A stretch of 64,000 bases of DNA from Acidobacteriota bacterium (GTDB lineage: Bacteria > Acidobacteriota > Vicinamibacteria > Vicinamibacterales > UBA2999): NCBI GenBank assembly GCA_003222635.1, contig QHWQ01000313.1, positions 873-64,872 of the forward strand, in the 5' to 3' direction. A program made the position numbers and the translations under genes. Under the pieces are notes generated by a model, which saw only the letters and a list, made by a program, of their open reading frames with translations, did not search any database and had not been told where the DNA came from. Of the stretch, positions 18,812-35,200 are shown piece after piece (position 1 is the stretch's first letter; every line of letters starts with the position of its first letter).

Positions 18812-21169
18812 CTATTTCGGTGACAGCGTCAGCCTGTGCGCCGCCTGCTTCTCGACCGCCGCGCGCGTGAACGGCAGGTTGAAGTAGACACCGTCGGCGA
18901 GCTTCTCGCGCGTATTCGCGTAGTACGGGCTTCCCGGTTGTCCCGATTCTCCCGGCGCGTTGGTCGCCACGTCTTTGTCCACATCCGAGAAATCGATGAT
19001 GCGCCGGAAGTTCGCGCCGGTGGCGTTGACGGAGTTGAACCCGCCCGGCCGCTCCACCGGCTTCAGACTGAACTGGTCGATGAACATGTGCTGCAGCGGG
19101 CTCTCGTTGATACGGCCGTATCGCCACTGCGACCAGTCGGCGCCCCAGTCCTTCGTCAACCGCGCCAGCGCCTGTGACAAGCCGTCCTCGACGAGCGCCT
19201 GCTGCGCGGCGCCGGTCTTCGCTTCGACGGCCTTGCGACCCGCGTCCGTTGTCGTCCACCGGACGTAGATCGCGCCCGGCGTCGTGTCTTTCGTGAGGAT
19301 CCGATCCCACCGCTCGATCATGGCGCGGGCTTTCTCGGCGTCGGGATCCCTGGCCGTCCAGCCCTTGAAGAGCGGCGCGTCGCGCTCGGCGTGCAGCGAG
19401 TAGTCGTCCTGCTGGATCCGCTCCATATCCTCGATGGTGAACGGCTTGTGCTCGGCAATCTGCTGGTCGAGCAGTTGACGAATTCGCGTGATGCGCGCGA
19501 TATCGACGTTCCTCGTCGTGTTGTAGAAGACCGGCCGCCCTTTGTAGTCCCTGGGGTGGGTGTTGTCGTTGGCGGTCGCAATGTAGCCGCGCGCCGGGTT
19601 GTACTCGCGCGGCAGGTCGCTCCGGAATCCCTTCCACTCATACGTTCCGGTTCCGGGGACGGGCAACCGTCCGGTCCATCCGTCGCGGTCGGGCGCCAGA
19701 CCCGATACCTGCAGCGCGATGTTCCCCTTCTTGTCACCGCAGATGAGATTGTGCGCCGGCAGTTTCCACGACATGGCGCGATCGAAGAAGTCCTCACAGC
19801 TGGTCGCTTGCGCAAGCTTGAGGCTGCCCTTATACGGCGCGGTACCCGGCTCCTGGTCCGAGGACCTGACGGCGAACGCGAGATGTCGCGCCTGGTCCTC
19901 GTAGAAGACCGGGCCGTGCTTCGAGAACTTCAGCTCCACAATCCGAGGCTTGTCTTCACCCCTGACCGCGATCTCCTCGCGGATGATCTTCATCGGCACC
20001 CAGGCGTCGTTGTACTTCGTCTCGTTCGGATTGGCCGGATTGGTCTGCTCGACGTAGGTATCCACCTCGTCGATGCCGGCGAAGGTGACACCCCACGCCA
20101 TGTTCTCGTTGTTGCCGAGGTCGACGCCGACAAACGGCGGCTCGCCGCCGCCGATCACGTGCCACCCGGGCGCATCCAGGTGCACGAAGTACCGCAGCGC
20201 CGGCATCTCGATCGCGCGATGCGGATCGTTCGAGACGATGGGAATGCCGCTCGCCGTGAGCCTGCCGCTGACCACCCAGTTGTTGCTGCCGTCCATGTCC
20301 TGCAACTCGGGCAGCAGCCGCGCCGCCTGGGTCTTCGGCACGAGAGAACGGTACGGTTCCACGATATCGGGCGACGGCAGTTTCCCGGGCGAGAACGGGT
20401 TGTCATCCCCCTTGCGTGCTGCCGCCAGAACATCTTCGGTGAACCAGTTCAGGTCGAGACCCTCGGGCACCTTCAAGTCGTCATACGGATCCGGCGCCGC
20501 GCGCCGGTTGGCTTCCTCGACCCCGAGCTTGCTCACGTCGAGCGCGAGCTGAATCTCGGAGATCGCATGTCCGCTCGTGCTGTCGATGCCGAGCTGCGCC
20601 CAGCGCAGCGTCACGGTCTTCGCGGTCCACGGTTCGGGCTTGATGCCTGTCAGCGTGAATTCGACCGGAAGGTTGCCGGCGTGCGTGGCGACGTATGCGT
20701 TGAGACCGTTCGCCCACGCCGTGAACAGCCTCTCGGCGTCGGGGTGATAGCTCGTCCACTCCTTCTGGTCCCACGGGCCGCGGAACATCGTCAGGCGTGT
20801 GCGCGCGTCGTAGTCGAAGGCCTTCGGGCCGAACACTTCGGCAAGCCGCCCCTCGCGCCAGCGGCGCCACATCTCCAGCTGCCAGAGGCGATCCTGCGCC
20901 ATCACATACCCTTCGGCGAAGAACAGGTCGTCGTCGTTCTGCGCGTAAATATGCGGGATGCCTTGCTGGTCGCGGATGATCTCCACCGGCTGCTTCAGGC
21001 CGGGGACCTTCAGGCTTCCGTCGATCGTCGCCAGCGACTGACGCGCCAGTTCGTCGACCGATGCGGGCGCCGATGCGCCCTGCAGCGCGGTCTCTGAACC
21101 CGCGGCGCTAAACGAGACGAGGGCAGCCAAACACAGGACGCACGCACGAGAACGGGCCAGAGTCATCAT
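18812..21169 (-). CDS. Penicillin acylase-family Ntn hydrolase (penicillin/cephalosporin/acyl-homoserine-lactone acylase type)
   Basis: Signal peptide present. Motifs: DQQGIPHIYAQNDDDLFFAEGYVMAQDRLWQLEMWRR and the autoprocessing site GSNNWVVSG. 785 aa. Confidence 0.85.
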   Translation of the reverse strand: MMTLARSRACVLCLAALVSFSAAGSETALQGASAPASVDELARQSLATIDGSLKVPGLKQPVEIIRDQQGIPHIYAQNDDDLFFAEGYVMAQDRLWQLEMWRRWREGRLAEVFGPKAFDYDARTRLTMFRGPWDQKEWTSYHPDAERLFTAWANGLNAYVATHAGNLPVEFTLTGIKPEPWTAKTVTLRWAQLGIDSTSGHAISEIQLALDVSKLGVEEANRRAAPDPYDDLKVPEGLDLNWFTEDVLAAARKGDDNPFSPGKLPSPDIVEPYRSLVPKTQAARLLPELQDMDGSNNWVVSGRLTASGIPIVSNDPHRAIEMPALRYFVHLDAPGWHVIGGGEPPFVGVDLGNNENMAWGVTFAGIDEVDTYVEQTNPANPNETKYNDAWVPMKIIREEIAVRGEDKPRIVELKFSKHGPVFYEDQARHLAFAVRSSDQEPGTAPYKGSLKLAQATSCEDFFDRAMSWKLPAHNLICGDKKGNIALQVSGLAPDRDGWTGRLPVPGTGTYEWKGFRSDLPREYNPARGYIATANDNTHPRDYKGRPVFYNTTRNVDIARITRIRQLLDQQIAEHKPFTIEDMERIQQDDYSLHAERDAPLFKGWTARDPDAEKARAMIERWDRILTKDTTPGAIYVRWTTTDAGRKAVEAKTGAAQQALVEDGLSQALARLTKDWGADWSQWRYGRINESPLQHMFIDQFSLKPVERPGGFNSVNATGANFRRIIDFSDVDKDVATNAPGESGQPGSPYYANTREKLADGVYFNLPFTRAAVEKQAAHRLTLSPK

Positions 21170-21996
21170 CGCACCCCGCTGGCAAAGCCGTACTGGTTGT
21201 TCTCCTGGCAGACGTATTCCATCAGCTCGTCGCCCGGTTGAACCAGCGTCGCCTGAAAGGTCACCGTAAACGGCCGCGAGTAGGCACCCGGATCATCGAT
21301 GGTCACCTCGCGCACGAGATGACCGGCATCCACCCGCGTCCACCGCTCGATCGTGTGCAGTTGCGTGGTGTGTGGCGTCGCTCGTCTATCGAACCAGAAC
21401 TTGTCGTTGAACCCGACGGTGTCGATGACGAGGGTGTCGTTCTCGTACCAGCCGATGGAATGACCGAACCAGGTTGGCTCGAGGTCGGAGGGATGCTTGC
21501 GGCCGTCCAGAAAGATCTGACGGAAGGAGCCCATCCACTCGGACATGATGTACATGTGCGTTGGCTTCTTGTGCGTGTAGTTCTGGATGAACCGGAACGG
21601 ATACGGACTGGTGCGCAGTAGACCGAGCGGCAGGCACCAGTTGACAGGATCATCCGTCAGCTTGGTGGATGCCATGAGCGCCTTCGCGGCAGGCAGCAAT
21701 GGCAGTTCTCCGCCGCCGCTCAATCGCCCCGCGATGCTGTCGCCCCCGCCCGGCGCGGTGACCCAGGCGCCGTCCCCCAGATCGATCGTCCCGTCCGGCA
21801 GGCGAGGCGCTGGCCCGGTCGGCGCAGGCGGTCGCTTGAGCTCCTGGCCCAGCGCGTTGACCGGACCGAGGACACCGATAGGATTTCCTGTTGCGTCCCG
21901 CTGAACTTGCGGCTGCTCCTGCGCGGCGGCCGGCGACCCTGCCAGCAGCGGAAGGACCACAACCACAACCCCTGCGACCACCAGCAGCTTGCGCAT
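21166..21996 (-). CDS. Secreted conserved hypothetical protein, paralog 5 of the family at 1-3912
   Basis: Signal MRKLLVVAGVVVVVLPLLAGSPAAAQ. Motifs: PYPFRFIQN, GWYENDTLVIDTV, FWFDRR, HTIERWT, IDDPGAYSRPF. Its stop overlaps the start of the acylase gene (21166-21169). Confidence 0.8.
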   Translation of the reverse strand: MRKLLVVAGVVVVVLPLLAGSPAAAQEQPQVQRDATGNPIGVLGPVNALGQELKRPPAPTGPAPRLPDGTIDLGDGAWVTAPGGGDSIAGRLSGGGELPLLPAAKALMASTKLTDDPVNWCLPLGLLRTSPYPFRFIQNYTHKKPTHMYIMSEWMGSFRQIFLDGRKHPSDLEPTWFGHSIGWYENDTLVIDTVGFNDKFWFDRRATPHTTQLHTIERWTRVDAGHLVREVTIDDPGAYSRPFTVTFQATLVQPGDELMEYVCQENNQYGFASGVR

Positions 21997-23098: not shown

Positions 23099-23758
23099 TC
23101 ACTTCGTCGCGTTGGTGTTCTCGGCAGCCACACCAATCACGATCAGGACTGCGTAGTCTTGCTTGTTGCAGCCTTCGACGGGAGGCATCGGGCGCCCTGG
23201 CGCCACGCGAAATTCCGATCTGGGAGCGTTCGCGGGTGAGCACGCATTCGGGCTCGTCGCCGGCGTGTAGCGCGCCGACCGACAGGCCAGGTGCGTCACG
23301 TCATAAAGCTTCGCTCCCTCACCGAGCTCCCAACGTTGATTGCCGTCCTTGTCCGGGCGATGGACGGTCAATACCGTGGTCACTTCGCGATCGCCGGTGA
23401 CCAGATATTTTCCGGGAGCAAGCGGGAACTTCGGCTTCTCCATGATGAGGCCGTGCTCTTCCAGCCACCAGTCCTTGCTGTCGAACTCCCACCTGGCCGG
23501 CGCGACCCCGCCGATTTCGATCAATCGTTTGTAGCTGCTCAAGGGCACGCCTCTGGGACCCGGATCGACACGCCAGAGTCCCCAGGTTTGTGCATTGTTC
23601 CCGGACTTCGCGGCTGGATCGCCCAACGCCGCGATGTACTGTGGGGCGACCGGCGTGAACTTCGTGTCGTTTGTACCGGCGGCGTGAGTCGGCGCTGCGA
23701 AGGTCATGACCATCCCGGCCACTGCTACCGCATGGAGTAGGTTGCGCATGAGGCTCAC
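23099..23758 (-). CDS. Secreted hypothetical protein
   Basis: ORF with a signal peptide (MSLMRNLLHAVAVAGMVMTFAAPTHAAG). I recognise no family motif. Confidence 0.6.
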   Translation of the reverse strand: MSLMRNLLHAVAVAGMVMTFAAPTHAAGTNDTKFTPVAPQYIAALGDPAAKSGNNAQTWGLWRVDPGPRGVPLSSYKRLIEIGGVAPARWEFDSKDWWLEEHGLIMEKPKFPLAPGKYLVTGDREVTTVLTVHRPDKDGNQRWELGEGAKLYDVTHLACRSARYTPATSPNACSPANAPRSEFRVAPGRPMPPVEGCNKQDYAVLIVIGVAAENTNATK

Positions 23759-23802: not shown

Positions 23803-25191
23803 TTGGCGGAGAATCGATCGATGGCGTCTCACGAGGTGTCCATCGTGATTCCGGTGCTCAACGACACCGAACCGCTGCGGCGGCTGCTGGCGACTCTCCC
23901 TGCCGATCCGCGGGTCGACATCGTCGTCGTCAACGGCGGCGCGGCGGACGATCGGCTGACCGCGATCTGTCGTCGGCCGGACGTCAAGTTGCGGACGTCG
24001 GCTGCGGGCCGCGGGCGTCAGATGAACGCCGGAGCGTCGGCTGCGGCGGGGCGGTGGATCGTGTTTGTGCATGCCGACACACACCTGCCACCGAAGTGGC
24101 TCGACGAAATTCGCCTGGCGAGTGCCGATCCAGACGCGGTTGGGGGCAGCTTTCGATTCCGGCTCGACTCCGGCGCGTGGCAGGCCCGGCTCATCGAGCG
24201 CGCCGTCGAATGGCGTGTCCGCTGGCTGGATCTCGCGTACGGGGATCAGGCGTTGTTCGTCCGCCGCGACGTATTCGATGCGATGGGCGGCTATCGCGAG
24301 TGGCTTTTGATGGAGGACGTCGACTTCGTGCGCCGGCTTCGCCAGGCTGGCAAGCTGTATCACTCGGCGCAACCGGTGCTCACGTCGGCGCGACGGTGGG
24401 AGCGCGGCGGCTGGTGGCGGACGAGCGCGAGCAACGTGATGCTCCAGGCCTTGTTCTTTGCCGGAGTGGCGCCTGAACGGCTGGCAGGTTGGTATGCGCA
24501 TCCATCGCGGCGATCCACACCGGAGGCGCTGGTGGTGCTGGCACGCGTTCCCTCTGGCGGCCGCGGTAAGTCTCGACTCACGCGCGCTCTCGGCGGTGAC
24601 CATCTCGAGCTCAGACGAGCGCTTCTGCTGGACACGCTCGACGCTGCCCGCAGCGTCGCGGACGCGGATCTGTTCGTCGCGTGTGAGCCCGCCGACTCGA
24701 TCGGCGACATGCGCGCACTCGTCGGCGACGGAGCCCGGTTGTTTCCGCAGCAGGGCGACACTCTCGGCGATCGGATGCGCAACGCATTTGCACACCTGTT
24801 CGCGGCCGGCTACGCGACGGTCGTGATGATCGGATCAGATCTCCCGTCGCTGCCGTCCTCCCATCTCGCAGAAGCGTTCCGATTCCTGCGCGAGCGGCCG
24901 GATGCTCTCGTGATTGGACCCGCGAGCGACGGCGGGTATTACCTGATCGGATTGCGCCGCGTCTGTCCCGCGTTGTTCACGTCGATTCCATGGAGTACAC
25001 CCGATGTGCTGACGACCACGACGAGCATTGCGGAGACGTGCGGTCTGATCGTGTCGTTGGTCTCCCCGTGGCACGACGTCGACACCGTAGACGACCTTCG
25101 GCGCGTGCTGCGCGATGCGCACGGCGCGGCACGAACGCGCGCGTGGGTGACCGCGCACGGCGATGTCACGCAACTCGTCAGTGATTGCTGA
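23803..25191 (+). CDS. Fusion of two GT-A-like transferases: family-2 glycosyltransferase (TIGR04283-like) plus a DUF2064 / TIGR04282-like domain
   Basis: N-terminal half: VSIVIPVLNDTEPL, FVHADTHLP, YGDQALFVRR, LMEDVDF. C-terminal half: LVVLARVPSGGRGKSRL, VMIGSDLPSLP, GPASDGGYYLIGL, IPWSTPDVL. Family names are recalled from memory. Confidence 0.75.
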   Translation: MAENRSMASHEVSIVIPVLNDTEPLRRLLATLPADPRVDIVVVNGGAADDRLTAICRRPDVKLRTSAAGRGRQMNAGASAAAGRWIVFVHADTHLPPKWLDEIRLASADPDAVGGSFRFRLDSGAWQARLIERAVEWRVRWLDLAYGDQALFVRRDVFDAMGGYREWLLMEDVDFVRRLRQAGKLYHSAQPVLTSARRWERGGWWRTSASNVMLQALFFAGVAPERLAGWYAHPSRRSTPEALVVLARVPSGGRGKSRLTRALGGDHLELRRALLLDTLDAARSVADADLFVACEPADSIGDMRALVGDGARLFPQQGDTLGDRMRNAFAHLFAAGYATVVMIGSDLPSLPSSHLAEAFRFLRERPDALVIGPASDGGYYLIGLRRVCPALFTSIPWSTPDVLTTTTSIAETCGLIVSLVSPWHDVDTVDDLRRVLRDAHGAARTRAWVTAHGDVTQLVSDC

Positions 25192-26014
25192 GGTCGTCCG
25201 GAAACACCTGCCACGGCCGCTGCGCACCGAAGGGCAGCGCGAAGCTGTTGGCGAGCGTCACGTCCTCGGGCGCCGGGTAGGCGGGAACGCCAATCGTAAT
25301 GGCCTGCTGCGGTACGTCGAGCCGCAGCGTGCCGTGAAGGTAATCCCACAGGGTCAACCCGCTGGACCAGTTCGAATTCGTCTCCGCGGGAACGATGGAA
25401 TGGTGGATGCCGTGCAGACGCGGCGTGACGACGAGGTGAGCCACGAGCCGCTCCACGTCAACCGGCAGTTCGACATTCGAGTGGTGAAAGAGAATCGAGA
25501 GGAGGAGCATGTTCTGCCAGAGGAGGAGCGCGTCGAGCGGGACGCCGATTGCCGCAATCTGGAGCGCGCGCCATGGGATTGACAGCGCGAGCTCGCCGGC
25601 ATGGAACCGGAGTGCGGTCGACGCGTCCAGATCGCGATCGACATGATGAACCAGATGAAACCGCCACAACCAGGAAACGCGGTGCGTGAGCACGTGCCAC
25701 ACGTAGAGCGTGTAGTCGAGGAGGACGATCGCCAGGGCGACGTGGACTGGTCGCGGCAGCCGACAGAGATACAGCAGTCCGCACCGGCGCCGCTCGACCA
25801 CGTTCGCGAGCGGCTCGACGACGGGTCGTTCGAGCAGATTGACCGTCGCGGCCGCGGCGCCCGCGAACACGATGTTGCGCGAGACGTGACGCCATTTCGC
25901 TTCGCGAACACGGCGCAACGGACGACGCCGTTCGAGTGCGGTCAACGCCAGAAACGCGCCGCCCACGGCGACCGGCGCCAGCACGCGCCACCAGGACGTG
26001 CGGCTCATTAACAT
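25178..26014 (-). CDS. Fatty acid hydroxylase / sterol desaturase-family membrane di-iron protein
   Basis: ORF 25178..26104, likely start MLMSRTSWW at 26014. Histidine boxes: HVLTH, FHLVHHVD, LFHHSN, LHGIHHS. Several hydrophobic helices. Confidence 0.8.
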   Translation of the reverse strand: MLMSRTSWWRVLAPVAVGGAFLALTALERRRPLRRVREAKWRHVSRNIVFAGAAAATVNLLERPVVEPLANVVERRRCGLLYLCRLPRPVHVALAIVLLDYTLYVWHVLTHRVSWLWRFHLVHHVDRDLDASTALRFHAGELALSIPWRALQIAAIGVPLDALLLWQNMLLLSILFHHSNVELPVDVERLVAHLVVTPRLHGIHHSIVPAETNSNWSSGLTLWDYLHGTLRLDVPQQAITIGVPAYPAPEDVTLANSFALPFGAQRPWQVFPDDLSNH

Positions 26015-26037
26015 AGAAGACAAGATTACGTGAGGAC

Positions 26038-27494
26038 GTGGTTGGAATGATTGCCGTGCCGGCCGCGCGGGATAGCGTGGGGACCGAGGGGTTGCTTGTC
26101 CCATTCGATGAAGCGAATCGGCAGCTCATCGCGGCGGTGCGTCCGCACGGCTGGGTCAACCCGCAATCGCGCGGTGTGTACGATCTCGTCGTCATCGGCG
26201 GCGGCACGGCCGGCCTCGTCAGCGCGGTTGGCGCCGCGCGCCTCGGCGCGCGCGTGGCGTTGATCGAACGCGGGTTTCTGGGTGGAGACTGCCTGCTGAC
26301 CGGCTGCGTGCCTTCGAAAGCGCTGCTCCGCTCCGCGCGTGCGATTGGCGAGGTGCGGCGCGCCGGCGGCATGGGCATTCGGGTCGGCGACTTCGAAGCC
26401 GATTTCGAATCGATCATGCGCCGTATGCGCGAGCGGCGCGCGGAAATCAGCGCGCACGACTCGGTTCAGCGCGTGCAGCAGGCCGGTGTTGCCGTGTTGT
26501 TCGGTCACGGACGTTTCACCGCCGATCGGGCAATTGAGGTCGACGGCCAGCGGCTCACGTTCAATCGCGCCATTATCGCGACCGGCTCCCGGCCCGCGAC
26601 GCCGCCGGTACGCGGCCTCGATCAGCTGCCGTACCTCACGAGCGAAACCGTCTTCTCGCTGACCGAGTTGCCGCGCCGGCTCCTCGTCATCGGCGGCGGT
26701 CCGATTGGATGCGAGCTGGCGCAGGCGTTCGCCCGCTTCGGATCGGCGGTCACGGTCTTCGACGTCGCGCCGCGCGTGCTGCCGAACGACGATGCGGATG
26801 CTGCCTCCATCGTGCACCGGCGACTCGCCAGCGACGGGGTGACGTTCCATCTCGGCGTGAAGCTGACCGAAGTCATACAAGAAGACGGGACGTTGGTCGT
26901 TCGGTACGAGCATCCGACGGGCGTCAGTCAGGCGACAGGAGACCGGCTGCTCGTTGCCGCCGGACGCGCGCCGAACGTTGACGGGCTCGACCTCGACATC
27001 GCGGGCGTCGCCGTCTCGAATGACGGTATGCGCTGGCGCGCGTCGCCATTCAGAATGCGCTGTTCCTGGGACGGCGCCGCGCCTCGTCGCTCGTCATTCC
27101 CTGGTGCACCTATACGGATCCCGAAGTGGCGCACGTCGGCGCGGACGGCAGCGACGCCCGGCAGCGGGGCCGGCGCGTCGAGACCATCACGATCCCGCTC
27201 AGCGACGTCGATCGCGCGATCGTCGACGACGAAGTTGAGGGCTTCGTGCGCGTCCACCACGATCGCGGCCGCTTGCTGGGCTCCACGATTGTCGCCCCGC
27301 ATGCCGGCGATCTGATCGCGGAGCCGACGTTCGCGCTGACGCATGGCCATACGCTCGCGGACCTGTCGCGAACGGTTCACCCGTATCCGACGCAGTCGGA
27401 ATCGCTCCGGATCGCCGCCGATGCGTACCGGCGGTCGCGACTCACGCCGCGCGTGCGGACGTGGCTCGAACGGTACTTCAGGTGGACACGGTGA
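26038..27494 (+). pseudogene. Pyridine nucleotide-disulfide oxidoreductase (mercuric reductase / dihydrolipoamide dehydrogenase-like), internally broken near 27030
   Basis: N-terminal part is intact (DLVVIGGGTAGL, redox-active GGDCLLTGCVPSK, NAD motif LLVIGGGPIGCE). After ...LDLDIAGVAVSNDG the frame becomes nonsense. The authentic sequence resumes in another frame (ALARVAIQNALFLGRRRASSLVIPWCTYTDPEVAHVG...VHPYPTQSE, track ORF 27126..27494). The expected segment with the second FAD motif (xAxGD) is absent. Confidence 0.75.
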
Positions 27495-28405
27495 CGAGTG
27501 CGGCGGCCGTCGCGTTGGGACACCTCGACAACCTGTGGATCCAGGTCAGCGGGACCCAGTGCAACATCGAGTGCCGTCACTGTTTCAACAACAGCGGGCC
27601 GCGCGCAACGACCTTCGGCCACATGACGTTGGAGGCGGTGAACGGCGCGATCGCGGCAGCATCGGCGCGGGGCGTGCGCGACATCTATTTCACGGGCGGA
27701 GAGCCGTTCCTCAATGTGGAGCTGCTCGAGATGATCGCGTGCGCGTTGGCCGTCGCGCCGACGACGGTGCTGACCAATGGCATGCTCATCAGCGATCGGA
27801 TTGCCGATCGGCTTGCGGGGCTCGCCAACGACGCGCGCTACTCGCTGGAGGTGCGAGTCAGTCTCGACGGGTACACGGAGGAGATGAATGACGCGATTCG
27901 CGGACGTGGCGTGTTCCGCGTCGCGCTCGCCGGCGCGGTGAGGCTTGCGCGGCGCAACCTCCTGCCGCTCATCACCATCGTTCGAACGTGGGATGACGCG
28001 GACGAGCTCGCGACGCTCGCCGGGTTCGCGCGCGTGCTGAAGGAGGCGGGCTGCGATCGTCCGCGCATCAAAGTCCTTCCTCCGCTGCCGCTCGGACGCG
28101 AGCTGACTCGCATCGCAGGCCTGCAGCGGGATGAGTGTGTGACGACCGCCATGCTCGACGGCTTCGATCGTGATCTGCTGATGTGCTCGAATTCGCGTCT
28201 GGTCACGGACCGCGGCGTATGGGTGTGCCCATTGCTCGTCGAGCAGCCGGATGCGCGGCTCGGAACAACGCTGGACGATGCCGCGAGCTCGTACGAGCTG
28301 CGGCACCAGGCGTGCGTCACATGCTGGCGGTACGGGACGATCTGCGGAAATGTGAGCGGACACATCGAAGGTCCTGACCTGGCTGGCGCGCCGGAGGCGC
28401 GGTGA
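27461..28405 (+). CDS. Radical SAM protein with a C-terminal Cys-rich tail (TIGR04167-like, the rSAM/selenodomain or ArsS-related family)
   Basis: CxxxCxxC motif (QCNIECRHC), then GGEPFLN. C-terminal cysteines: VWVCPLL...ACVTCWRYGTICGN. An alternative GTG start at 27491 overlaps the upstream stop (GTGA). Family assignment is from memory and from gene context. Confidence 0.7.
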   Translation: MARTVLQVDTVTSAAAVALGHLDNLWIQVSGTQCNIECRHCFNNSGPRATTFGHMTLEAVNGAIAAASARGVRDIYFTGGEPFLNVELLEMIACALAVAPTTVLTNGMLISDRIADRLAGLANDARYSLEVRVSLDGYTEEMNDAIRGRGVFRVALAGAVRLARRNLLPLITIVRTWDDADELATLAGFARVLKEAGCDRPRIKVLPPLPLGRELTRIAGLQRDECVTTAMLDGFDRDLLMCSNSRLVTDRGVWVCPLLVEQPDARLGTTLDDAASSYELRHQACVTCWRYGTICGNVSGHIEGPDLAGAPEAR

Positions 28406-29181
28406 AGCGGTTCGCGCTGATCGGCGGCATCTACAGCAACTGGCGCGCCCTGGAGACGGCGCTCTCGGACATCGCGCGGCGGCAGGTAGACGCCACATTC
28501 TGCCTCGGCGACCTCGGCGCTTTCGGACCGTATCCGGACCGGGTGTTTCCAGTCCTGCAGCAGGCGGGCGTGCTGTGCCTGCAGGGAAATTATGACCATT
28601 CACTGGCTTGCGGACTCGCCGATTGCCAGTGCGGCTATACCGACCCGCGCGACAACCACTTCGCGGATCTGAGCTACGACTACACGTTCCGCCACACGTC
28701 GCCCGCACACAAGGCGTGGCTCGGCACGTTACCGATGTCGCGGCGGCTCGATGTCAACGGGACGCGGCTGCTGCTGTGTCACGGGTCTCCGCGCAAGATC
28801 AACGAGTTCCTGTGGGAATCGACAAGCCCGGACGGGTTTCTCGCGTATCTGCTCGACGAGGCTGGTGTGGACGTGCTGTGCGTCACGCACACTGGCATCA
28901 AGTGGCATCGCGATCTTGGCGGCGGGCGCCACGTGGTCAATGTCGGAGCGCTCGGTCGACCGGAAAACGACGGCACGCCGCGGGTGTGGTACGCGCTGCT
29001 GACGATCGGTGCCACGTCCGGCGTGGAATTCATTCCGATCGAGTACGACCACGAGGCGCTCGCGGCGGATATGCACGCCGAGCGGCTGCCCGCCGAGTTC
29101 ATCGAGACGATCCTCTCCGGCTGGTGGACGACGTGTCTCGAGGTGCTGCCGCAGAAGGAGCGCGCACGGGGACGATTCTGA
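28402..29181 (+). CDS. Metallophosphoesterase (calcineurin-like, YfcE/MJ0936-type)
   Basis: Motifs: LIGGIYSN, CLGDLGAFGP, LQGNYDH, LCHGSP, VTHTG, VNVGALGRP. The GTG start overlaps the rSAM stop. Confidence 0.8.
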   Translation: MKRFALIGGIYSNWRALETALSDIARRQVDATFCLGDLGAFGPYPDRVFPVLQQAGVLCLQGNYDHSLACGLADCQCGYTDPRDNHFADLSYDYTFRHTSPAHKAWLGTLPMSRRLDVNGTRLLLCHGSPRKINEFLWESTSPDGFLAYLLDEAGVDVLCVTHTGIKWHRDLGGGRHVVNVGALGRPENDGTPRVWYALLTIGATSGVEFIPIEYDHEALAADMHAERLPAEFIETILSGWWTTCLEVLPQKERARGRF

Positions 29182-29240: not shown

Positions 29241-32200
29241 GTGCCGACGCGTCCGTCACGAGAGGCTGAGCTTCCGTCCCCGTTCCAGGGCGGCGAGCTC
29301 CTTGGAATCGAGGCGCTCGAGGAGCGCGCCAGACGGCTGGCGGCCGCGCTCACCGTCGACGATCGAGCCAGTGCTTCGCGCGCACATCTCCGGCGGCTGA
29401 AAGCGCACATGGCCGCGCTCCGCGACGTCTATCTCTCCGTCGCGGAAGACGCCCGCGCCGGCGAACCACCGTCGCCGGCAGCCGAATGGTTCCTCGACAA
29501 CTTCTTCGTCATCTCGACCACGGCGCGGGACGTGCGGCGCGACCTCCCGGGGCCTTTCTTCAGGCGTCTGCCTCGAATCGCGGCCGATGAGTACGAGGGG
29601 TCGCCGAGAATCGTCGCGCTGGCGATCGAGTTGGTCCGGTGGAGTGCCGGCCGTCTCGACGCGCAACGGCTGCATCGGTTCGTGACGGCGTACCAATCGA
29701 TTACGCCGCTCACGATCGGAGAGCTCTGGGCGTGGCCCAGCGCCCTCAAGCTGGCCCTGATCGAACAGCTGCGCGCGCGCGCCGAGGTGCTGGCCCTCAG
29801 CCGGTCGCATCGCCGGCACGCCGATGCGGTCGCTGCCGCGCTCGAATCGAGGACGACCCACAGGCGCGCATGGCCGACGGAGCTGCACCCCGCCTTCGTC
29901 ATCCGGCTGCTTCAGCGCGCGCAGGAGTACGAGAACGCCGCCGCCCTGCGGCAGGAGCTCGACGCGTCTCTCGCGGTGACGGGCCAGTCGATCGAGCAGG
30001 CCATCGCCTCCGAGGGACGCCATCAGGCGCTTGCGCAGGCGGCGATGGCCGGCCTCATCGGGAGCCTGCGGCTGATCGCCTCGTTCGACTGGAGCGAATT
30101 CTTCGAGAGCGTCAACCTCGTCGAGCAGGTGTTGCAGCGCGATCCGGCGGGCGTGTACGGCCGCATGGATTTTCGCAGCCGCGATCGCTATCGCCACGCC
30201 GTCGAAGAGCTCGCGGCGCCGACGGGCGAGGCCCAGCTGCGCGTCGCGCTGAAGGCGGTCGAATACGCGAGGCGCACCGGCGAGGACTCGCCCGCGGCGC
30301 GCGGGGCGCACATCGGCTACCACCTGATTGGCGGCGGACGCGCAGCGTTCGAGCGGAGCATCGCGTGGCTGCCGAAGCTGCCGCAGCGGGTACGCCGAAT
30401 TCTCTTCCGTTGCGCAACGCTCGGCTACCTGGGCGCGATCACCGCCGGCACCGCCGCAGTCGTGGCAGTGGCGGTCGCCTATGCGTACGCATACGGGTGG
30501 CGCGACGTATCGCTGCTGGCCGTGGCGCTCCTGGTCGCCGTTCCCGCCAGCGAGCTCACAATCCAGCTGGTGCAGCGCGCGCTCAGCAGTCTGGTGCCGC
30601 CGCGGCGGCTGCCTCGATTGGAGCTCAGTCGTCTTCCGTCCGACGCGCGCACGATGGCCATCGTCCCGACCATCCTCGGCAGCGTGGACGGTGTGCGCGC
30701 GCTCGCCGAGCATCTCGAGGTGCAGGCTGCGGGCAATCTCGATCCCTATATTCATTTCGCCATTCTCAGCGACCTGCGCGACGCGGCGACCGAGCACGAG
30801 CCGCACGACGCCGAGATCGTCGCCGCCGCGCGCGCGGCGATTGACGATCTCAACGCGCGGTACCCCGGAGAAGCCGGCGGCCGGTTCTTCCTCTTTCATC
30901 GGGAACGCCGGTGGAACGAAGGCGAAGGACTGTGGATGGGATGGGAGCGCAAACGCGGAAAAATCGAGGAGTTCAACCATCTTCTGCGCGGCGCGCGCGA
31001 TACCACCTTCACCGTGCAGGTCGGCGATCTGTCAATCCTTCCTCAGGTCCGCTACTGTCTCACGCTCGATACGGATACGCGGCTGCCGCGCGACGCGGCG
31101 CGCGAGCTGGTCGGCATCATCACGCACCCGCTCAATCGGCCGGGATTCGATCCACAGGCCTGCCGCGTGACGGAGGGCTACGGCATCCTCCAGCCGCGCG
31201 TGAGTGTCACGTTTGCGAGCGCGGCCGGATCGCTCTTCGCGCGGCTGTATTCCGGACACACGGGAGTTGATCCGTACACGAGCGCGGTCTCCGACACGTA
31301 CCAGGATCTGTTCGGCGAGGGCATCTTCACCGGCAAGGGTCTGTTCGACGTGGACGCGTTCATCGCCGCACTCGACGATTGCGTGCCGGAGAACGCGCTG
31401 CTCTCCCACGATTTGTTCGAGGGGCTGCACGCGCGCGCGGCGCTCGTCTCCGACGTCGAGCTCGTGGACGAGTACCCGTCCAGCGTGCTCGCCCATGCGC
31501 GCCGGCAGCACCGCTGGATTCGCGGCGACTGGCAGATCCTTCTGTGGCTGCTGCCGTGGGTCCCCTCCCGGCGGGGCCTCAAACGCAACACGCTCTCGGT
31601 GATCGCCCGGTGGAAGATCTTCGACAATCTGCGCCGCAGCCTGGTCGCCCCGATGCTGCTCGCGCTGCTCGTCGCCGGCTGGACGATCCTGCCCGGTTCG
31701 TCCGCCGCATGGACGATGGGCGTGCTGGCGGTCGTCGCGTCGCAGCTGCTGCCGCTCGCGGCGCGCCTGCTGACCGGTCCGCGCCGGCCGCAATCGCTGC
31801 CGGTGTTCCTGCGCAACCTGCGCAACGATGCCGCGACGGCGTTCGCGCAGATTCTGCTCGGCATCGTGCTGCTTCCGTATCACGCCGTCGCGTCGGCGCA
31901 CGCCATCGTGGTGACGCTGATACGGCTCGCGTTCACGAGGAGCCGGCTGCTCGAATGGGAAACGGCGGCGGCGACCGCGGCCAGGGCGAGGGGACTCACC
32001 GGACGCCGCGCGCTCGCGCTGTTCGTGATGGAGATGAGGGCGAGTCCGCTCGTCGCCGTACTCTCCGTCGTGATCATCGTTGCGACAGGTGCGGGGACGC
32101 TGGGCATCGCGGCTCCGTTCGTCCTGTCATGGGCGCTCGCGCCTGTCGTGGCGTACTGGCTCAGCATCCCCGTGGGCGCCCGCGCCCGTCCGCTCGGCGA

Positions 32201-35200
32201 CCGACAGCGGTTCCTTCTTCGACGGACCGCGTGCAAGACGTGGCGCTACTTCGACACGTTCGTCACCGAGGCCGACAGCTGGCTGCCCCCCGACAACTAC
32301 CAGGAAGGCGCCGATGAGGGACGAGTGGCGCGCCGCACCTCACCGACGAACGTCGCGATGGGGTTGCTCTCGACGCTGGCCGCGCACGATCTGGGTTATC
32401 TCACGACGGACGCGCTCGCCACCCGCGTCGATCGAACGTTGACGACGCTCGAAGGCCTCGAACGCCATGAGGGACATTTCCTGAACTGGTACGACACGGC
32501 GACACTTGCGCCGTTGCGCCCGCGTTACGTGTCCACGGTGGACAGCGGGAACCTGGCGGGCGCGCTCATCGCCCTCGGCCAGGGGCTGCGAGGACTCGTC
32601 GACACACCGCAGACGCTCGCGCAGCGGCTCGACGGGCTCGCCGATACGGCGGACACGCTTGCACTCGCTGCCGCGCCGACTGGCGCGGCCGGTGCCGCGC
32701 ACGAGGGCATTGCCCGGCTTGCGCGGGCCATTGCCGACCAGGCGCGGCGCGCCGTACGCGAACAACGCGATGCGCAGTTCGACGCGCTCGCTGTGGATCT
32801 CGCGGCGAGTATCTCCGGAATGCAACAGCGACGAAGCGGTCTCGTGCCGCGTGATGTGGACTATTGGGGCGCCGCGACGCAAGATCGCATCCACGCACTG
32901 CATTCGACGCCAGGCGCACGGCTCGACCTCCTCGAATCCCTCGCGCGGCGCGCCGTCGCGCTCGCCGACGCGATGCGGTTCGATTTTCTCTACGACCGCC
33001 GGAGGCGGCTGTTTGCGATCGGCTATCGGCTCGCCGACGCGGAGGGAGCGGGCTGCCTCGACGGCTCGTACTACGACCTGCTCGCATCCGAAGCGCGGCT
33101 GGCGAGCTTCGTTGCCATTGCGAAGGGCGACGTACCGCAGCACCACTGGTTCCATCTCGGCCGGCTGGTCACCAACCTTCATGGCCACGCGACCCTCGTC
33201 TCCTGGGGCGGGACGCAGTTCGAATACCTGATGCCGCTCCTGCTGCTGCGCACCTTTGCCGGCACGCTGCTCGATCAGAGCTGCCGCGAAAGCGTGAAAC
33301 GTCAGATCGAGTACGGCGACCAACGCAGGGTGCCGTGGGGAGTGTCCGAGTCGGCGTACGCGGTGACGGATCGAGAGGGGAACTACCAGTATCGGGCGTT
33401 CGGCGTGCCTGGACTCGGCCTCAAGCGCGGCCTCTCGGAGGACCTCGTCGTCTCGCCGTACTCCACGGCACTGGCAGCGCTGGTCGATCCGGCCTCGGCG
33501 GCCGAGAACTTCGTACGGCTCGCGCGCGCGGGGCTCGACGGCCGGTTCGGGTTCTACGAAGCGCTCGACTACACCCCGAGGCAACCCGAAGGTTCCGGCG
33601 AGCCCGCGAAGCCAGAGGTTATCCGGGCCTTCTTCGCCCACCATCAGGGCATGTCGCTCGTCGCGCTCGCCAACGTGATCCGCAACGACGCCTTCGTCGC
33701 GCGCTTCCATGCGGACCCGCGCATCCAGGCGACCGAGCTCCTTCTCCAGGAACGGGTGCCGCGCGAAGCAATCCTGTCGGAGCCGAGGCCGGCCGAAAGC
33801 ACGAGCCCGACGCCCTCGGTTCCACCGCCAGCATCGCGGCGGTTCAAATCGCCGCACACGCGCAGCGCGCACTCGCTCGTGCTCTCGAACGGCCGCTACT
33901 CGACGCATGTCACCAACGCGGGCGGCGGGTACAGTACCTACAAGGACCTCGCCGTCACCCGTCAGCGCCACGACTGGACCTCCGATGCCAGCGCCCACTT
34001 CATCTACCTCCGCGATCCATGGTCGCGGCGCGTCTGGTCGGCGACCTATCTGCCGATGGCCACCGAACCGGACGATTACGAGGTGACGTTCGACCTCGAC
34101 AAAGCGACCTTCCGCCGGCGTGATGGCGACTTCGAGACAGTGCTGCAAATCGTCGTCTCACCGGAGGACGACGTGGAGGTGAGGCGGCTGTCGATCGCCA
34201 ATCGCAGCGACCGACCGCACGACCTCGAGGTGACCAGCTACGCGGAGATCGTGCTGGGTGGTCCGATGGACGACCTCGCGCATCCCGCGTTCGGGAAACT
34301 GTTCATCGAAAGCGAGTTCGATGGGCAGAGCGCGGGGCTGCTCTTCAGCCGGCGGCCGCGAGGCTCCGACGAGACGCCGATGTGGGCGTTTCATGTCCTC
34401 GGCGTCGAAGGCCGCACGCGCAGCGCCGTGGAATGGGAAACCGATCGCGCCCGTTTCCTGGGCCGGGGACGCACGCCCGCCAATCCCCTCGCGCTCGACG
34501 GCCGCGCGTTGTCGGGAACGACGGGCGCCGTGCTCGACCCCATCGCTGCGCTGCGCGAACGCGTGCACCTCGCGCCTGGCGCCTTCGTCCGCATCGCCTA
34601 CGCGACGGGGGTCGCACGGGATCGAGAGGCGGCGCTCGCGATGATCCGCAAGTATCGCGACGGGAATGCCGCGGCGCGCGCGCTGTCGATGGCATTCACC
34701 CACGTGCACACGACGCTGCAGTATCTGGGTCTCACCGACGATCAGGCGGTGCTGTTCGACCGGCTGGCATCGCGCGTGTTCGGCCCCGACCGCTCGTGCA
34801 TCAGCCCGGCCGACATTGCCGCGAATTCGCTGGGCCAGTCCAATCTGTGGGGCTATGGCATCTCCGGCGACCTGCCGATCGTGCTCGTGCGCGTCGGCGC
34901 CACCGACGCGGTGCCGCTGGTCCGGCAGGTGCTGCACGCACAGGATTACTGGCGGGTCAATGCGCTTCGCGCCGACGTCGTGATCCTCAACGAGCATCCG
35001 GCGGATTACCTCGATGAGACGCAGGACGCCCTGACCCATCTTGTCCACGAGGCGCGATGGGCGGGATGGCTCGACAAGCCGGGCGGAGTCTTTCTGCGCC
35101 GCACCGAAGGCATGCCGGAAACCGATCGGCGGCTGCTCGGGGCGGTCGCGCGTGTCGTGCTGCACGGCGACTTCGGCGAGATCGGCGCCCAGCTCCATCC

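What the first reader, a model, noticed from the sequence alone, without database searches (positions are those of the whole stretch)
23803..29181. Radical-SAM/Cys-rich protein neighbourhood with fused 'rSAM/selenodomain-associated' transferases, a flavoprotein reductase, a di-iron hydroxylase and a metallophosphoesterase
From memory, TIGR04282 and TIGR04283 were named 'rSAM/selenodomain-associated transferases 1 and 2' because they co-occur with the TIGR04167 rSAM/Cys-rich protein. That family now includes the arsenosugar enzyme ArsS. Here both transferases are fused into one 462-aa protein. The rSAM gene lies 2.3 kb away in an overlapping operon with a mercuric-reductase-like flavoprotein and a metallophosphoesterase, and a divergent fatty-acid-hydroxylase-family gene sits between them. 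The biochemical role of this conserved neighbourhood is, as far as I know, unresolved. The lipid-type enzymes hint at a modified lipid or glycolipid product. No arsM-like methyltransferase is present in the window.
Basis: partly seen in the sequence, partly recalled or inferred. Interest (0 to 1): 0.6.

Follow-up and report, generated by a model that had tools for sequence, protein, structure and literature searches.

The report
Arsenosugar-type cassette with swapped radical-SAM enzyme
A soil acidobacterium carries the partner genes that databases label "arsenosugar biosynthesis", but the known arsenic-carbon bond enzyme ArsS is replaced by an unnamed radical-SAM enzyme that always travels with an odd, cysteine-rich phosphatase-like protein, which points to an unstudied second version of this pathway.

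Summary
One 462-aa protein does fuse TIGR04283 and TIGR04282, and both halves score above the NCBIfam cut-offs. The radical SAM protein is not TIGR04167/ArsS: it scores 54.5 bits against a cut-off of 300, has no DUF3641 domain, and no ArsS exists anywhere in this genome. It belongs to an unnamed twitch-type rSAM family. In 96 of 99 loci from many phyla, that family lies next to a metallophosphoesterase-fold protein. That partner has lost three of its seven canonical metal ligands and carries four invariant cysteines.

True ArsS loci in other Acidobacteriota carry the same accessory set: TIGR04283, TIGR04282, the NF004991 MerA-like flavoprotein, the same FA_hydroxylase subfamily (56% identical), DUF547 and a VTT/DedA protein. 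So the rSAM+MPE pair occupies ArsS's slot. In four genomes an ArsM-type methyltransferase lies directly beside the new rSAM.

The flavoprotein here is a pseudogene (31 codons deleted plus a frameshift), and close relatives lack it. The conserved local core is four genes.

The chemistry is inferred, not shown. My best guess is SAM-derived alkylation of a (methyl)arsenical followed by nucleotide activation and glycosyl transfer. I found no paper on this family.

The parts
23803..25191 (+). Fused transferase, 462 aa. The N-terminal GT2 domain is TIGR04283 (residues 12-231). The C-terminal DUF2064/CofC-like domain is TIGR04282 (residues 243-432).
   Evidence: 227.8 bits (cut-off 182) and 179.4 bits (cut-off 134). 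PF00535 and PF09837. The same fusion occurs in L008, L009, L169 and L170. It is single-copy in the genome.
25178..26104 (-). Membrane di-iron FA_hydroxylase-family protein of the subfamily specific to this kind of cluster. The true start is probably Met31 or Met33, near 26014.
   Evidence: PF04116, 81.3 bits. It is not OlsE (70 bits against 475). It is 56% identical over 232 aa to the FA_hydroxylase that sits between TIGR04283 and ArsS in L159. A custom HMM hits only cluster-linked copies and only one ORF in the own genome.
26038..27494 (+). Pseudogene of an NF004991-type (MerA-like) pyridine-nucleotide disulfide oxidoreductase. About 31 codons, including the RIYAAGD FAD motif, are deleted, and the frame shifts near 27027. 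The original stop (TGA, 27492-27494) overlaps a GTG at 27491 of the rSAM gene.
   Evidence: the match stops at residue 330, and the score is 406 bits against a cut-off of 620; the N part aligns to residues 4-321 and the C part to 353-498 of the intact L027 orthologue. The gene is absent in L008, L009, L169 and L170.
27461..28405 (+). Radical SAM enzyme of an unnamed twitch/SPASM-type family. It has CX3CX2C at C34/C38/C41 and auxiliary Cys at C242, C256, C285, C288 and C295. The likely true start is the GTG at 27491, giving 304 aa.
   Evidence: best NCBIfam hit NF049973 at 96.5 bits (cut-off 380); TIGR04167 at 54.5 bits (cut-off 300); invariant Cys. AF2 pLDDT 89.8; nearest folds are SkfB, BlsE, anSME and MoaA; hhalign against ArsS gives 98.8% probability over the full length. 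P0001 is the 304-aa form.
28402..29181 (+). Metallophosphoesterase-fold partner protein, 259 aa, with a remodelled active site and four invariant Cys (C34, C75, C77, C245). It is translationally coupled to the rSAM gene by a GTGA overlap.
   Evidence: PF12850, 35.8 bits; motif I DxH becomes GGxYxN, motif III GNH[DE] becomes GNYD, and motif V GHxH becomes THxG; D37, N63, H127 and H163 are retained; pLDDT 90.3; best folds are SapH (TM 0.76), 3rqz and 1nnw, then Vps29; it is found with the new rSAM in 96/99 loci, and in 24 of 25 rSAM-positive genomes.

Best explanation
The window holds a compact variant of the gene cluster that NCBI labels 'arsenosugar biosynthesis'. That cluster normally comprises TIGR04283 GT2, TIGR04282 DUF2064/CofC-like, an NF004991 flavoprotein, a dedicated FA_hydroxylase-family protein, and sometimes DUF547, VTT/DedA and ArsM. 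Here the C-As bond-forming radical SAM enzyme ArsS (TIGR04167) is replaced by a two-gene module. One gene is a distinct, unnamed twitch-type radical SAM enzyme. The other is a cysteine-rich, half-degenerate metallophosphoesterase-fold protein.

Shown:
- The family assignments.
- The near-obligate rSAM-MPE pairing across phyla.
- The identity of the accessory set with that of true ArsS loci.
- Genome-level co-occurrence with TIGR04283.
- Occasional direct adjacency to ArsM-type methyltransferases.
- Loss of the M1 metal ligands in the MPE.
- Decay of the flavoprotein gene in this lineage.

Inferred mechanism:
1. The rSAM enzyme reductively cleaves SAM and attaches a SAM-derived group, most simply 5'-deoxyadenosyl as ArsS does, to a trivalent (methyl)arsenical or a similar soft metalloid.
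2. That substrate is bound or delivered by the Cys-rich MPE-like partner. Alternatively, the partner uses its remaining single metal site to hydrolyse a phosphate ester of the intermediate.
3. After loss of adenine, the modified ribose phosphate is nucleotide-activated by the DUF2064 domain.
4. The fused GT2 domain transfers it to an acceptor.
5. The membrane di-iron FA_hydroxylase-type enzyme acts on the acceptor or the product.

The classical ArsM encoded elsewhere in the genome could supply methylated arsenic.
For: - Family scores.
- No ArsS in the own genome.
- rSAM+MPE adjacent in 74/81 and 96/99 loci, spanning Acidobacteriota, Methylomirabilota, Eisenbacteria, Myxococcota, Entotheonella and others. 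Strong MPE matches occur essentially only in genomes that have the new rSAM.
- True ArsS loci carry the same partners. L159 reads flavoprotein | TIGR04282 | MerR | TIGR04283 | FA_hydroxylase | ArsS. L129 reads DUF547 | VTT | flavoprotein | ArsS | ArsM ... TIGR04283.
- New-rSAM loci in other phyla carry TIGR04283 (275.5, 223.9 and 194.6 bits, cut-off 182), TIGR04282 (161.9 bits, cut-off 134) and NF004991 (817.5 bits, cut-off 620), plus VTT and DUF547.
- Census within +-10 kb, new-rSAM loci versus ArsS loci: GT2 25/99 vs 8/27; DUF2064 15/99 vs 8/27; flavoprotein 17/99 vs 9/27; VTT 12/99 vs 7/27; DUF547 11/99 vs 4/27; FA_hydroxylase 4/99 vs 2/27; MPE 96/99 vs 1/27.
- In 251 Acidobacteriota genomes, 22 of 25 new-rSAM genomes have TIGR04283, against 64 of 226 others (odds ratio 18.6). 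ArsS and the new rSAM co-occur in only 3 genomes.
- An ArsM-type methyltransferase lies directly beside the new rSAM in G131, G119, G005 and G093. The same ArsM type lies beside true ArsS.
- hhalign of the new family against ArsS gives 98.8% probability, with all five C-terminal Cys in register.
- A classical ArsM is on contig C223 of the own genome.
- ArsS chemistry is taken from PMC13598754 and PMC12159101.
Against: - No experiment bears on this family or on TIGR04282/TIGR04283. The 'arsenosugar' label on those two rests on association only.
- Only about 4 of 25 new-rSAM genomes, and about 40% of ArsS genomes, have a dedicated ArsM at E <= 1e-40. Arsenic may therefore not be the usual substrate.
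- By HMM score the rSAM is no closer to ArsS than to several SPASM families.
- A tree does not resolve it as sister to ArsS.
- Three quarters of rSAM+MPE loci have none of the accessory genes within 10 kb.
- The co-occurrence statistics are not corrected for phylogeny.
- The role proposed for the MPE cysteines is untested. Their positions in 3D could not be measured with the tools available.
Confidence: 0.5

Rival explanations
1. Same cassette, but not about arsenic. The TIGR04282/TIGR04283/FA_hydroxylase/flavoprotein set would make a non-arsenical product, such as a modified ribosyl or glycosyl lipid or a solute. ArsS and the new rSAM+MPE pair would be alternative suppliers of a SAM- or nucleotide-derived building block. 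Arsenic would be a substrate only in the lineages that add ArsM.
For: - Most genomes with ArsS (about 60%) or with the new rSAM (about 80%) lack a dedicated ArsM at E <= 1e-40.
- Lipid-type neighbours recur: FA_hydroxylase, VTT/DedA, and an AMP-ligase-ACP-PlsC fusion in 17/81 loci.
- The MPE fold is closest to a nucleotide-polyphosphate hydrolase (SapH).
- The rSAM's nearest folds include nucleotide- and nucleoside-acting enzymes: BlsE, MoaA and viperin.
Against: - The only experimentally known activity in this neighbourhood is arsenic adenosylation by ArsS (PMC13598754).
- ArsM-type genes, when present, lie directly next to the rSAM.
- MerR-type metal regulators and a thiol-redox set (MerA-like flavoprotein, DUF547, PrdB-like protein) fit the handling of a metalloid.
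- A classical ArsM exists in this genome.
Confidence: 0.3
2. The rSAM+MPE pair is functionally unrelated to the neighbouring transferases and is juxtaposed with them by chance. It could be, for example, a peptide (RiPP) maturase or a viperin-like nucleotide-modifying or defence enzyme.
For: - SPASM/twitch RiPP maturases are the best structural neighbours.
- There are weak pVip hits in PADLOC (48.9 bits).
- 74 of 99 rSAM+MPE loci have no TIGR04283 within 10 kb.
Against: - Adjacency to TIGR04283, TIGR04282 and NF004991 recurs in at least four phyla, with varying gene order.
- 22 of 25 rSAM genomes carry TIGR04283.
- The old flavoprotein stop overlaps the rSAM start here.
- No precursor-peptide gene and no defence-island context was seen.
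- The family is single-copy and chromosomal in many phyla.
Confidence: 0.07
3. One reading: the rSAM is a TIGR04167 'rSAM/Cys-rich' (ArsS-family) protein, so this would be an ordinary ArsS neighbourhood.
For: It has a Cys-rich C-terminus. hhalign places its five Cys in register with those of ArsS.
Against: - 54.5 bits against a cut-off of 300, matching only the N-terminal core.
- No PF12345 hit.
- ArsS, the new family and a third clade are separate, well-supported clades (95-100% SH-aLRT).
- True ArsS proteins score 320-456 bits.
Confidence: 0.02

Closest known systems
ArsM-ArsS arsenosugar pathway (ArsS = TIGR04167, radical SAM (seleno)protein; partners TIGR04282 and TIGR04283 as named by NCBIfam)
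   Same: - The accessory genes are the same: TIGR04283 GT2, TIGR04282 DUF2064, NF004991 flavoprotein, the same FA_hydroxylase subfamily (56% identical), and DUF547 and VTT in relatives.
- The rSAM has the same overall plan: a CX3CX2C core plus a five-Cys C-terminal domain that aligns in register.
- An ArsM-type gene is adjacent in some relatives.
   Different: - The rSAM is a separate family (54.5 bits against 300, no DUF3641).
- It has an obligate MPE-fold partner that ArsS loci in Acidobacteriota lack (1/27).
- No ArsM is in the cluster here.
- The two transferases are fused.
- The flavoprotein is a pseudogene.
SapH / PF1291 branch of the metallophosphoesterase fold (PDB 3qfm, 3rqz, 1nnw, 2gju)
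   Same: The fold matches (TM 0.70-0.76). The M2-site ligands are retained: D37, N63, H127 and H163.
   Different: - The motif I Asp and His are replaced by Gly and Tyr.
- The motif III His is replaced by Tyr.
- The second His of motif V is replaced by Gly.
- There are four invariant Cys: a CLGD motif, a DCxCGYTDPxDN insert, and a C-terminal WWTTC.
Twitch/SPASM radical SAM enzymes (SkfB, BlsE, anSME, MoaA)
   Same: A partial TIM-barrel rSAM core with a C-terminal auxiliary Fe-S domain. Foldseek gives E 1e-15 to 1e-8.
   Different: TM is only 0.5-0.63 and identity 15-21%. No RiPP precursor or nucleoside-antibiotic context is present.

Membership tests
TIGR04283 (GT2, 'arsenosugar biosynthesis glycosyltransferase') | NCBIfam whole-protein score of at least 182 bits over the full 221-position model | tested here: met
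   227.8 bits, residues 12-231, model positions 1-221
TIGR04282 (DUF2064/CofC-like) | NCBIfam score of at least 134 bits over the full 189-position model | tested here: met
   179.4 bits, residues 243-432, model positions 1-189; PF09837 at 118.4 bits
TIGR04167 / ArsS | NCBIfam score of at least 300 bits over the full-length model | tested here: not met
   54.5 bits, model positions 6-143 only. No genome-wide match over the cut-off.
TIGR04167 / ArsS | C-terminal DUF3641 (PF12345) Cys/Sec-rich domain | tested here: not met
   No Pfam hit at E <= 0.001. A five-Cys domain aligns in register by hhalign, which shows distant homology only.
TIGR04167 / ArsS | Adenosylation of DMAs(III) to 5'-deoxy-5'-dimethylarsinoyl-adenosine | not testable with these tools
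   The activity is known for ArsS from the literature (PMC13598754). There are no data for this family.
NF004991 FAD-containing (MerA-like) oxidoreductase | Score of at least 620 bits, with an intact FAD motif and dimerisation domain in one frame | tested here: not met
   406.3 bits, with the match ending at residue 330. There is a deletion of about 31 codons plus a frameshift. It is a pseudogene of this family.
Pfam FA_hydroxylase (PF04116) | Gathering score of 31 bits and histidine boxes | tested here: met
   81.3 bits. HVLTH, HLVHH, FHH and HGIHH are visible in the sequence.
OlsE ornithine-lipid hydroxylase (NF052566) | Score of at least 475 bits | tested here: not met
   70.3 bits
Canonical metallophosphoesterase | Five motifs (DxH, GD, GNH[DE], H, GHxH) that supply seven ligands for a dinuclear metal site | tested here: not met
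   The fold and PF12850 are met (35.8 bits, cut-off 27). Motifs I, III and V read GGxYxN, GNYD and THxG, invariant in 91 orthologues.
Rv1681-family radical SAM (NF049973) | Score of at least 380 bits | tested here: not met
   96.5 bits, model positions 74-211 only
Prokaryotic viperin (pVip) | A full-length match to pVip models in a defence context | tested here: not met
   48.9 bits over residues 33-151 only. The neighbours are biosynthetic, not defence genes.

The most novel reading that the evidence does not exclude
The rSAM+MPE pair would be a second, mechanistically distinct carbon-metalloid bond-forming system. In this reading the MPE-fold protein is no longer a phosphatase. It is a metalloid chaperone that binds As(III) or methyl-As(III), or Sb or Se, through its invariant cysteines in the space of the lost M1 metal site, and presents the substrate to the radical SAM enzyme. 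The product would be a class of organoarsenical (or other organometalloid) glycoside or lipid not yet described, made by hundreds of uncultured soil species.
Probability: 0.2. Interest if true: 0.8.

Novelty: new variant of a known kind. Interest (0 to 1): 0.6.

Why it matters
Only the first two steps of bacterial arsenosugar synthesis, ArsM and ArsS, have been shown experimentally. The roles of TIGR04282, TIGR04283, the flavoprotein, the FA_hydroxylase, DUF547 and VTT are unknown.

A natural 'swap', in which ArsS is replaced by a different rSAM plus a Cys-rich MPE-like protein while the rest of the cluster stays, gives a clean comparative handle. Whatever the shared genes do must be compatible with both front ends.

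The new pair is also a concrete, small, expressible candidate for a second route of C-As (or other) bond formation. It is widespread: relatives occur in 366 stretches of species-representative genomes and in well over a thousand metagenomic proteins, mostly from soil Acidobacteriota, Methylomirabilota, Eisenbacteria and Myxococcota. It could therefore matter for arsenic cycling in soils.

The finding also warns that automatic 'arsenosugar biosynthesis' names on TIGR04282/TIGR04283 are being applied to genomes that have no ArsS.

Tried and rejected
1. Selenocysteine. One search reported in-frame TGA codons in eight orthologues. Alignment shows they are the natural stop codons just after the last Cys (CxN[FY]*), read through by the search. 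There is no evidence for Sec.
2. ArsS membership. Rejected on score and domain content.
3. Defence or viperin reading. Only weak N-terminal pVip hits and no defence context.
4. Function from fold. Foldseek returns generic twitch/SPASM enzymes and SapH/Vps29-type MPE folds. Neither assigns a substrate.
5. Phylogeny to test 'sister of ArsS'. Three clean clades appear, but the deep branches are unresolved and long-branch warnings apply. The result is inconclusive.
6. A first tblastn screen of 20 ArsS loci with the window's proteins looked almost empty. Profile searches and direct annotation showed that this was a sensitivity problem.
7. TIGR04168, a possible 'phosphoesterase partner', is absent from eight acidobacterial genomes. 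It matches only the Synechococcus control genome.
8. Literature. There is nothing on the function of TIGR04282, TIGR04283 or DUF547, and nothing on an rSAM+MPE pair.
10. The MFS transporter and the porin-like protein upstream in Terriglobia loci gave no substrate clue: Sugar_tr, and no Pfam hit.

Full report
**What is in the window.** The window comes from a Vicinamibacterales (Acidobacteriota) MAG. Its nearest genome records are Vicinamibacterales MAGs, and it lies at G000:C25. The region 23.8-29.2 kb contains the following genes.
- A 462-aa protein whose N-terminal half is TIGR04283 (227.8 bits, cut-off 182) and whose C-terminal half is TIGR04282 (179.4 bits, cut-off 134).
- On the other strand, an FA_hydroxylase-family membrane di-iron protein (PF04116, 81.3 bits). 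It is far below the OlsE cut-off.
- A MerA-like flavoprotein ORF.
- A radical SAM protein.
- A metallophosphoesterase-fold (MPE) protein whose GTG start overlaps the rSAM stop (GTGA at 28402-28405).

**The rSAM is not ArsS.** It scores 54.5 bits on TIGR04167 (cut-off 300), and only over the N-terminal core. It has no DUF3641 hit. Its best NCBIfam match, the Rv1681 family at 96.5 bits against 380, is also far below threshold. The whole genome (88% complete) has no TIGR04167 member. The protein does have CX3CX2C (C34/C38/C41) and five invariant C-terminal cysteines. Its AlphaFold model is confident (pLDDT 89.8). The nearest solved folds are twitch/SPASM enzymes: SkfB, BlsE, anSME, EpeE, SuiB and MoaA, at TM 0.5-0.63. 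This assigns a fold class but no substrate.

**The conserved unit is rSAM plus MPE.** A scan of species-representative genomes found 366 stretches that encode relatives. The 80 best loci span Acidobacteriota, Methylomirabilota/Rokubacteria, Eisenbacteria, Myxococcota, Entotheonella, Planctomycetota, Verrucomicrobiota and others.
- The MPE gene follows the rSAM gene in 74 of 81 loci by clustering and in 96 of 99 loci by profile search.
- In 251 Acidobacteriota genomes, strong MPE matches (over 370 bits) occur in 24 of the 25 genomes with a strong rSAM match. They also occur in four genomes with partial rSAM matches, and always next to the rSAM.
- The MPE is non-canonical. In 91 orthologues, motif I (DxH) reads GGxYxN, motif III (GNH[DE]) reads GNYD, and motif V (GHxH) reads THxG. 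The three ligands of the first metal site are therefore gone, while D37, N63, H127 and H163 remain.
- Four cysteines are invariant: C34, C75, C77 and C245.
- Its model (pLDDT 90.3) is closest to the Ap4A hydrolase SapH (TM 0.76), to two uncharacterised archaeal proteins, and then to the catalytically dead scaffold Vps29.

**The accessory genes are those of true ArsS clusters.** I located bona fide ArsS (320-456 bits) in 52 of 251 Acidobacteriota genomes and read its surroundings.
- Locus L159 reads flavoprotein (NF004991) | TIGR04282 | MerR | TIGR04283 | FA_hydroxylase | ArsS.
- Locus L129 reads DUF547 | VTT/DedA | flavoprotein | ArsS | arsenosugar-type ArsM ... TIGR04283.
- The FA_hydroxylase in L159 is 56% identical to the window's. 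A profile of this subfamily finds only one ORF in the own genome.
- Conversely, new-rSAM loci in other phyla read rSAM | MPE | PrdB-like | VTT | flavoprotein | GT2 (NC10 chromosome, L069). Another reads rSAM | MPE | VTT | flavoprotein | DUF2064 | GT2 (Ca. Angelobacter, L027).
- In those loci the GT2, the DUF2064 protein and the flavoprotein all pass the TIGR04283, TIGR04282 and NF004991 cut-offs.

| Gene within +-10 kb | New-rSAM loci | ArsS loci |
|---|---|---|
| GT2 | 25/99 | 8/27 |
| DUF2064 | 15/99 | 8/27 |
| Flavoprotein | 17/99 | 9/27 |
| VTT | 12/99 | 7/27 |
| DUF547 | 11/99 | 4/27 |
| FA_hydroxylase | 4/99 | 2/27 |
| MPE | 96/99 | 1/27 |
| ArsM-like | 4/99 | 9/27 |

At genome level, 22 of 25 new-rSAM genomes carry TIGR04283, against 64 of 226 others (odds ratio 18.6, not phylogenetically corrected). 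For ArsS genomes the figure is 35 of 52. ArsS and the new rSAM coexist in only three genomes. The simplest reading is that rSAM+MPE and ArsS are alternative front ends of one accessory pathway.

**Link to arsenic.**
- In four acidobacterial genomes (G131, G119, G005, G093) an ArsM-type methyltransferase lies directly beside the new rSAM. Its best models are NF040538 at about 350 bits and NF008823 at about 200 bits, both below cut-off. The same ArsM type flanks true ArsS in five loci.
- A third rSAM clade is equidistant from both families (about 180 bits on either profile). It is always next to this ArsM type and has no adjacent MPE.
- Profile-profile comparison aligns the new family with ArsS over the full length (98.8% probability). 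All five C-terminal Cys are in register, including the GxxC position that is selenocysteine in some ArsS proteins (motif from PMC13188914).
- However, a tree gives three clean clades with unresolved deep order. I therefore treat the new family as a functional counterpart of ArsS, not as a proven sister.
- The window has no ArsM, but the genome encodes a classical ArsM on contig C223.
- Against an obligatory arsenic role, dedicated ArsM genes are absent from most genomes with either rSAM.

**State of the cluster in this organism.**
- The flavoprotein gene is a pseudogene. Its N-terminal part aligns to residues 4-321 of an intact orthologue, and its C-terminal part, in another frame, to residues 353-498. 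About 31 codons, including the RIYAAGD motif, are missing.
- Its old stop overlaps a GTG of the rSAM gene at 27491. That position is also where gene callers start the identical protein P0001. The gene was therefore once translationally coupled to the rSAM gene.
- Five close relatives (80-89% rSAM identity) lack it completely. They have the four-gene cassette: fused transferase | FA_hydroxylase (divergent) | rSAM | MPE, with different flanks.
- DUF547 and the PrdB-like gene are absent from the genome. One VTT gene lies elsewhere.
- The downstream 2838-aa ORF has no counterpart next to the cassette in relatives.

**Mechanism (inferred).** ArsS adds the 5'-deoxyadenosyl radical of SAM to DMAs(III) (PMC13598754, PMC12159101). 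By analogy and context, the proposed steps are as follows.
1. The new rSAM alkylates a trivalent (methyl)arsenical or similar soft substrate.
2. The Cys-rich MPE-like partner either binds and presents that substrate or hydrolyses a phosphate ester with its single remaining metal site.
3. After loss of adenine, the CofC-like DUF2064 domain nucleotide-activates the ribose phosphate.
4. The fused GT2 domain transfers it to an acceptor.
5. The membrane di-iron enzyme modifies the acceptor or the product.

Only the gene associations are shown. Every chemical step is inference.

**Comparison with prior knowledge.** Literature searches found no study of TIGR04282, TIGR04283, DUF547 or this rSAM+MPE pair. 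Earlier notes of this scan, on other genomes, describe the same swap. I reached it independently before reading them, so they agree with my reading but are not independent evidence. Notes saying that a Cys-rich 'dead phosphatase' travels with true ArsS in other phyla were not borne out for Acidobacteriota (1 of 27 loci).

**Limits.**
- The census uses loci that partly overlap between sets.
- The statistics ignore phylogeny.
- The 3D positions of the MPE cysteines could not be measured.

Noticed in passing
window 27000-27130 (gene 26038-27494): The MerA-like flavoprotein is a pseudogene, with about 31 codons (including RIYAAGD) deleted and a frameshift. Its former stop overlaps the GTG at 27491 of the rSAM gene. 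Five close relatives have lost the gene entirely.
   Followed up: yes
L163-L168 (G130, G002, G175, G021, G069, G164): A third ArsS-like rSAM clade scores about 180 bits on both the ArsS profile and the new-family profile. In five of six loci it lies directly downstream of an ArsM-type methyltransferase, with no adjacent MPE. It may account for many TIGR04283-positive genomes that have neither ArsS nor the new rSAM.
   Followed up: partly
L138, L148, L149, L152; L132, L134, L157, L158, L162: Two ArsM types serve these clusters. One is NF038099 ('arsenosugar ArsM', 11/251 genomes). The other is about 390 aa, is closest to the arsinothricin-type model NF040538 (about 350 bits, below cut-off) and occurs in 23/251 genomes. 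The second type sits next to either ArsS or the new rSAM.
   Followed up: partly
L069:11715-12233 and 8 other Methylomirabilota loci: A small (about 172 aa) PrdB/GrdB-like protein (TIGR04483 115 bits, PF07355) is inserted between the MPE and VTT genes. It was seen only with the new rSAM (9/99 loci against 0/27).
   Followed up: no
L047, L050, L053, L055, L057, L065 and others (17 of 81 loci), about 2.8 kb upstream of the rSAM: An 890-aa AMP-ligase + ACP + PlsC-acyltransferase fusion protein lies upstream of rSAM+MPE in many Acidobacteriota and Entotheonella loci. This is a hint of a lipid link.
   Followed up: no
L010-L030 (Terriglobia and gp13 loci), directly upstream of the rSAM: A porin-like 454-aa protein (no Pfam hit) and an MFS 'Sugar_tr' transporter precede rSAM+MPE on the same strand in 11-14 loci. 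They may be an uptake or export module.
   Followed up: partly
window 29241-37757: A 2838-aa ORF lies directly downstream. It has no counterpart next to the cassette in any relative, so it is not part of the cassette.
   Followed up: partly
window 23099-23758 (-): A 219-aa secreted protein with no family match lies upstream of the fused transferase. It is conserved (81-83% identity) in L008 and L009. A 216-aa gene with no Pfam match sits at the same position in L170 and L171. It is absent from more distant loci.
   Followed up: no
own genome C223:17632-18420: A classical ArsM (arsenite methyltransferase), about 260 aa with the usual Cys pairs, is encoded on another contig. The organism can probably methylate arsenic.
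   Followed up: partly
control genomes of the genome search: TIGR04167, TIGR04283 and TIGR04168 each match only Synechococcus elongatus among the 14 control genomes. TIGR04168 is absent from the eight acidobacterial genomes tested, so the cyanobacterial cluster has a partner that Acidobacteriota lack.
   Followed up: no
window 18812-21169 (-): A penicillin-amidase-family (PF01804, 560 bits) Ntn hydrolase is translationally coupled to an upstream unknown ORF (21166-21996). It is unrelated to the cassette.
   Followed up: no
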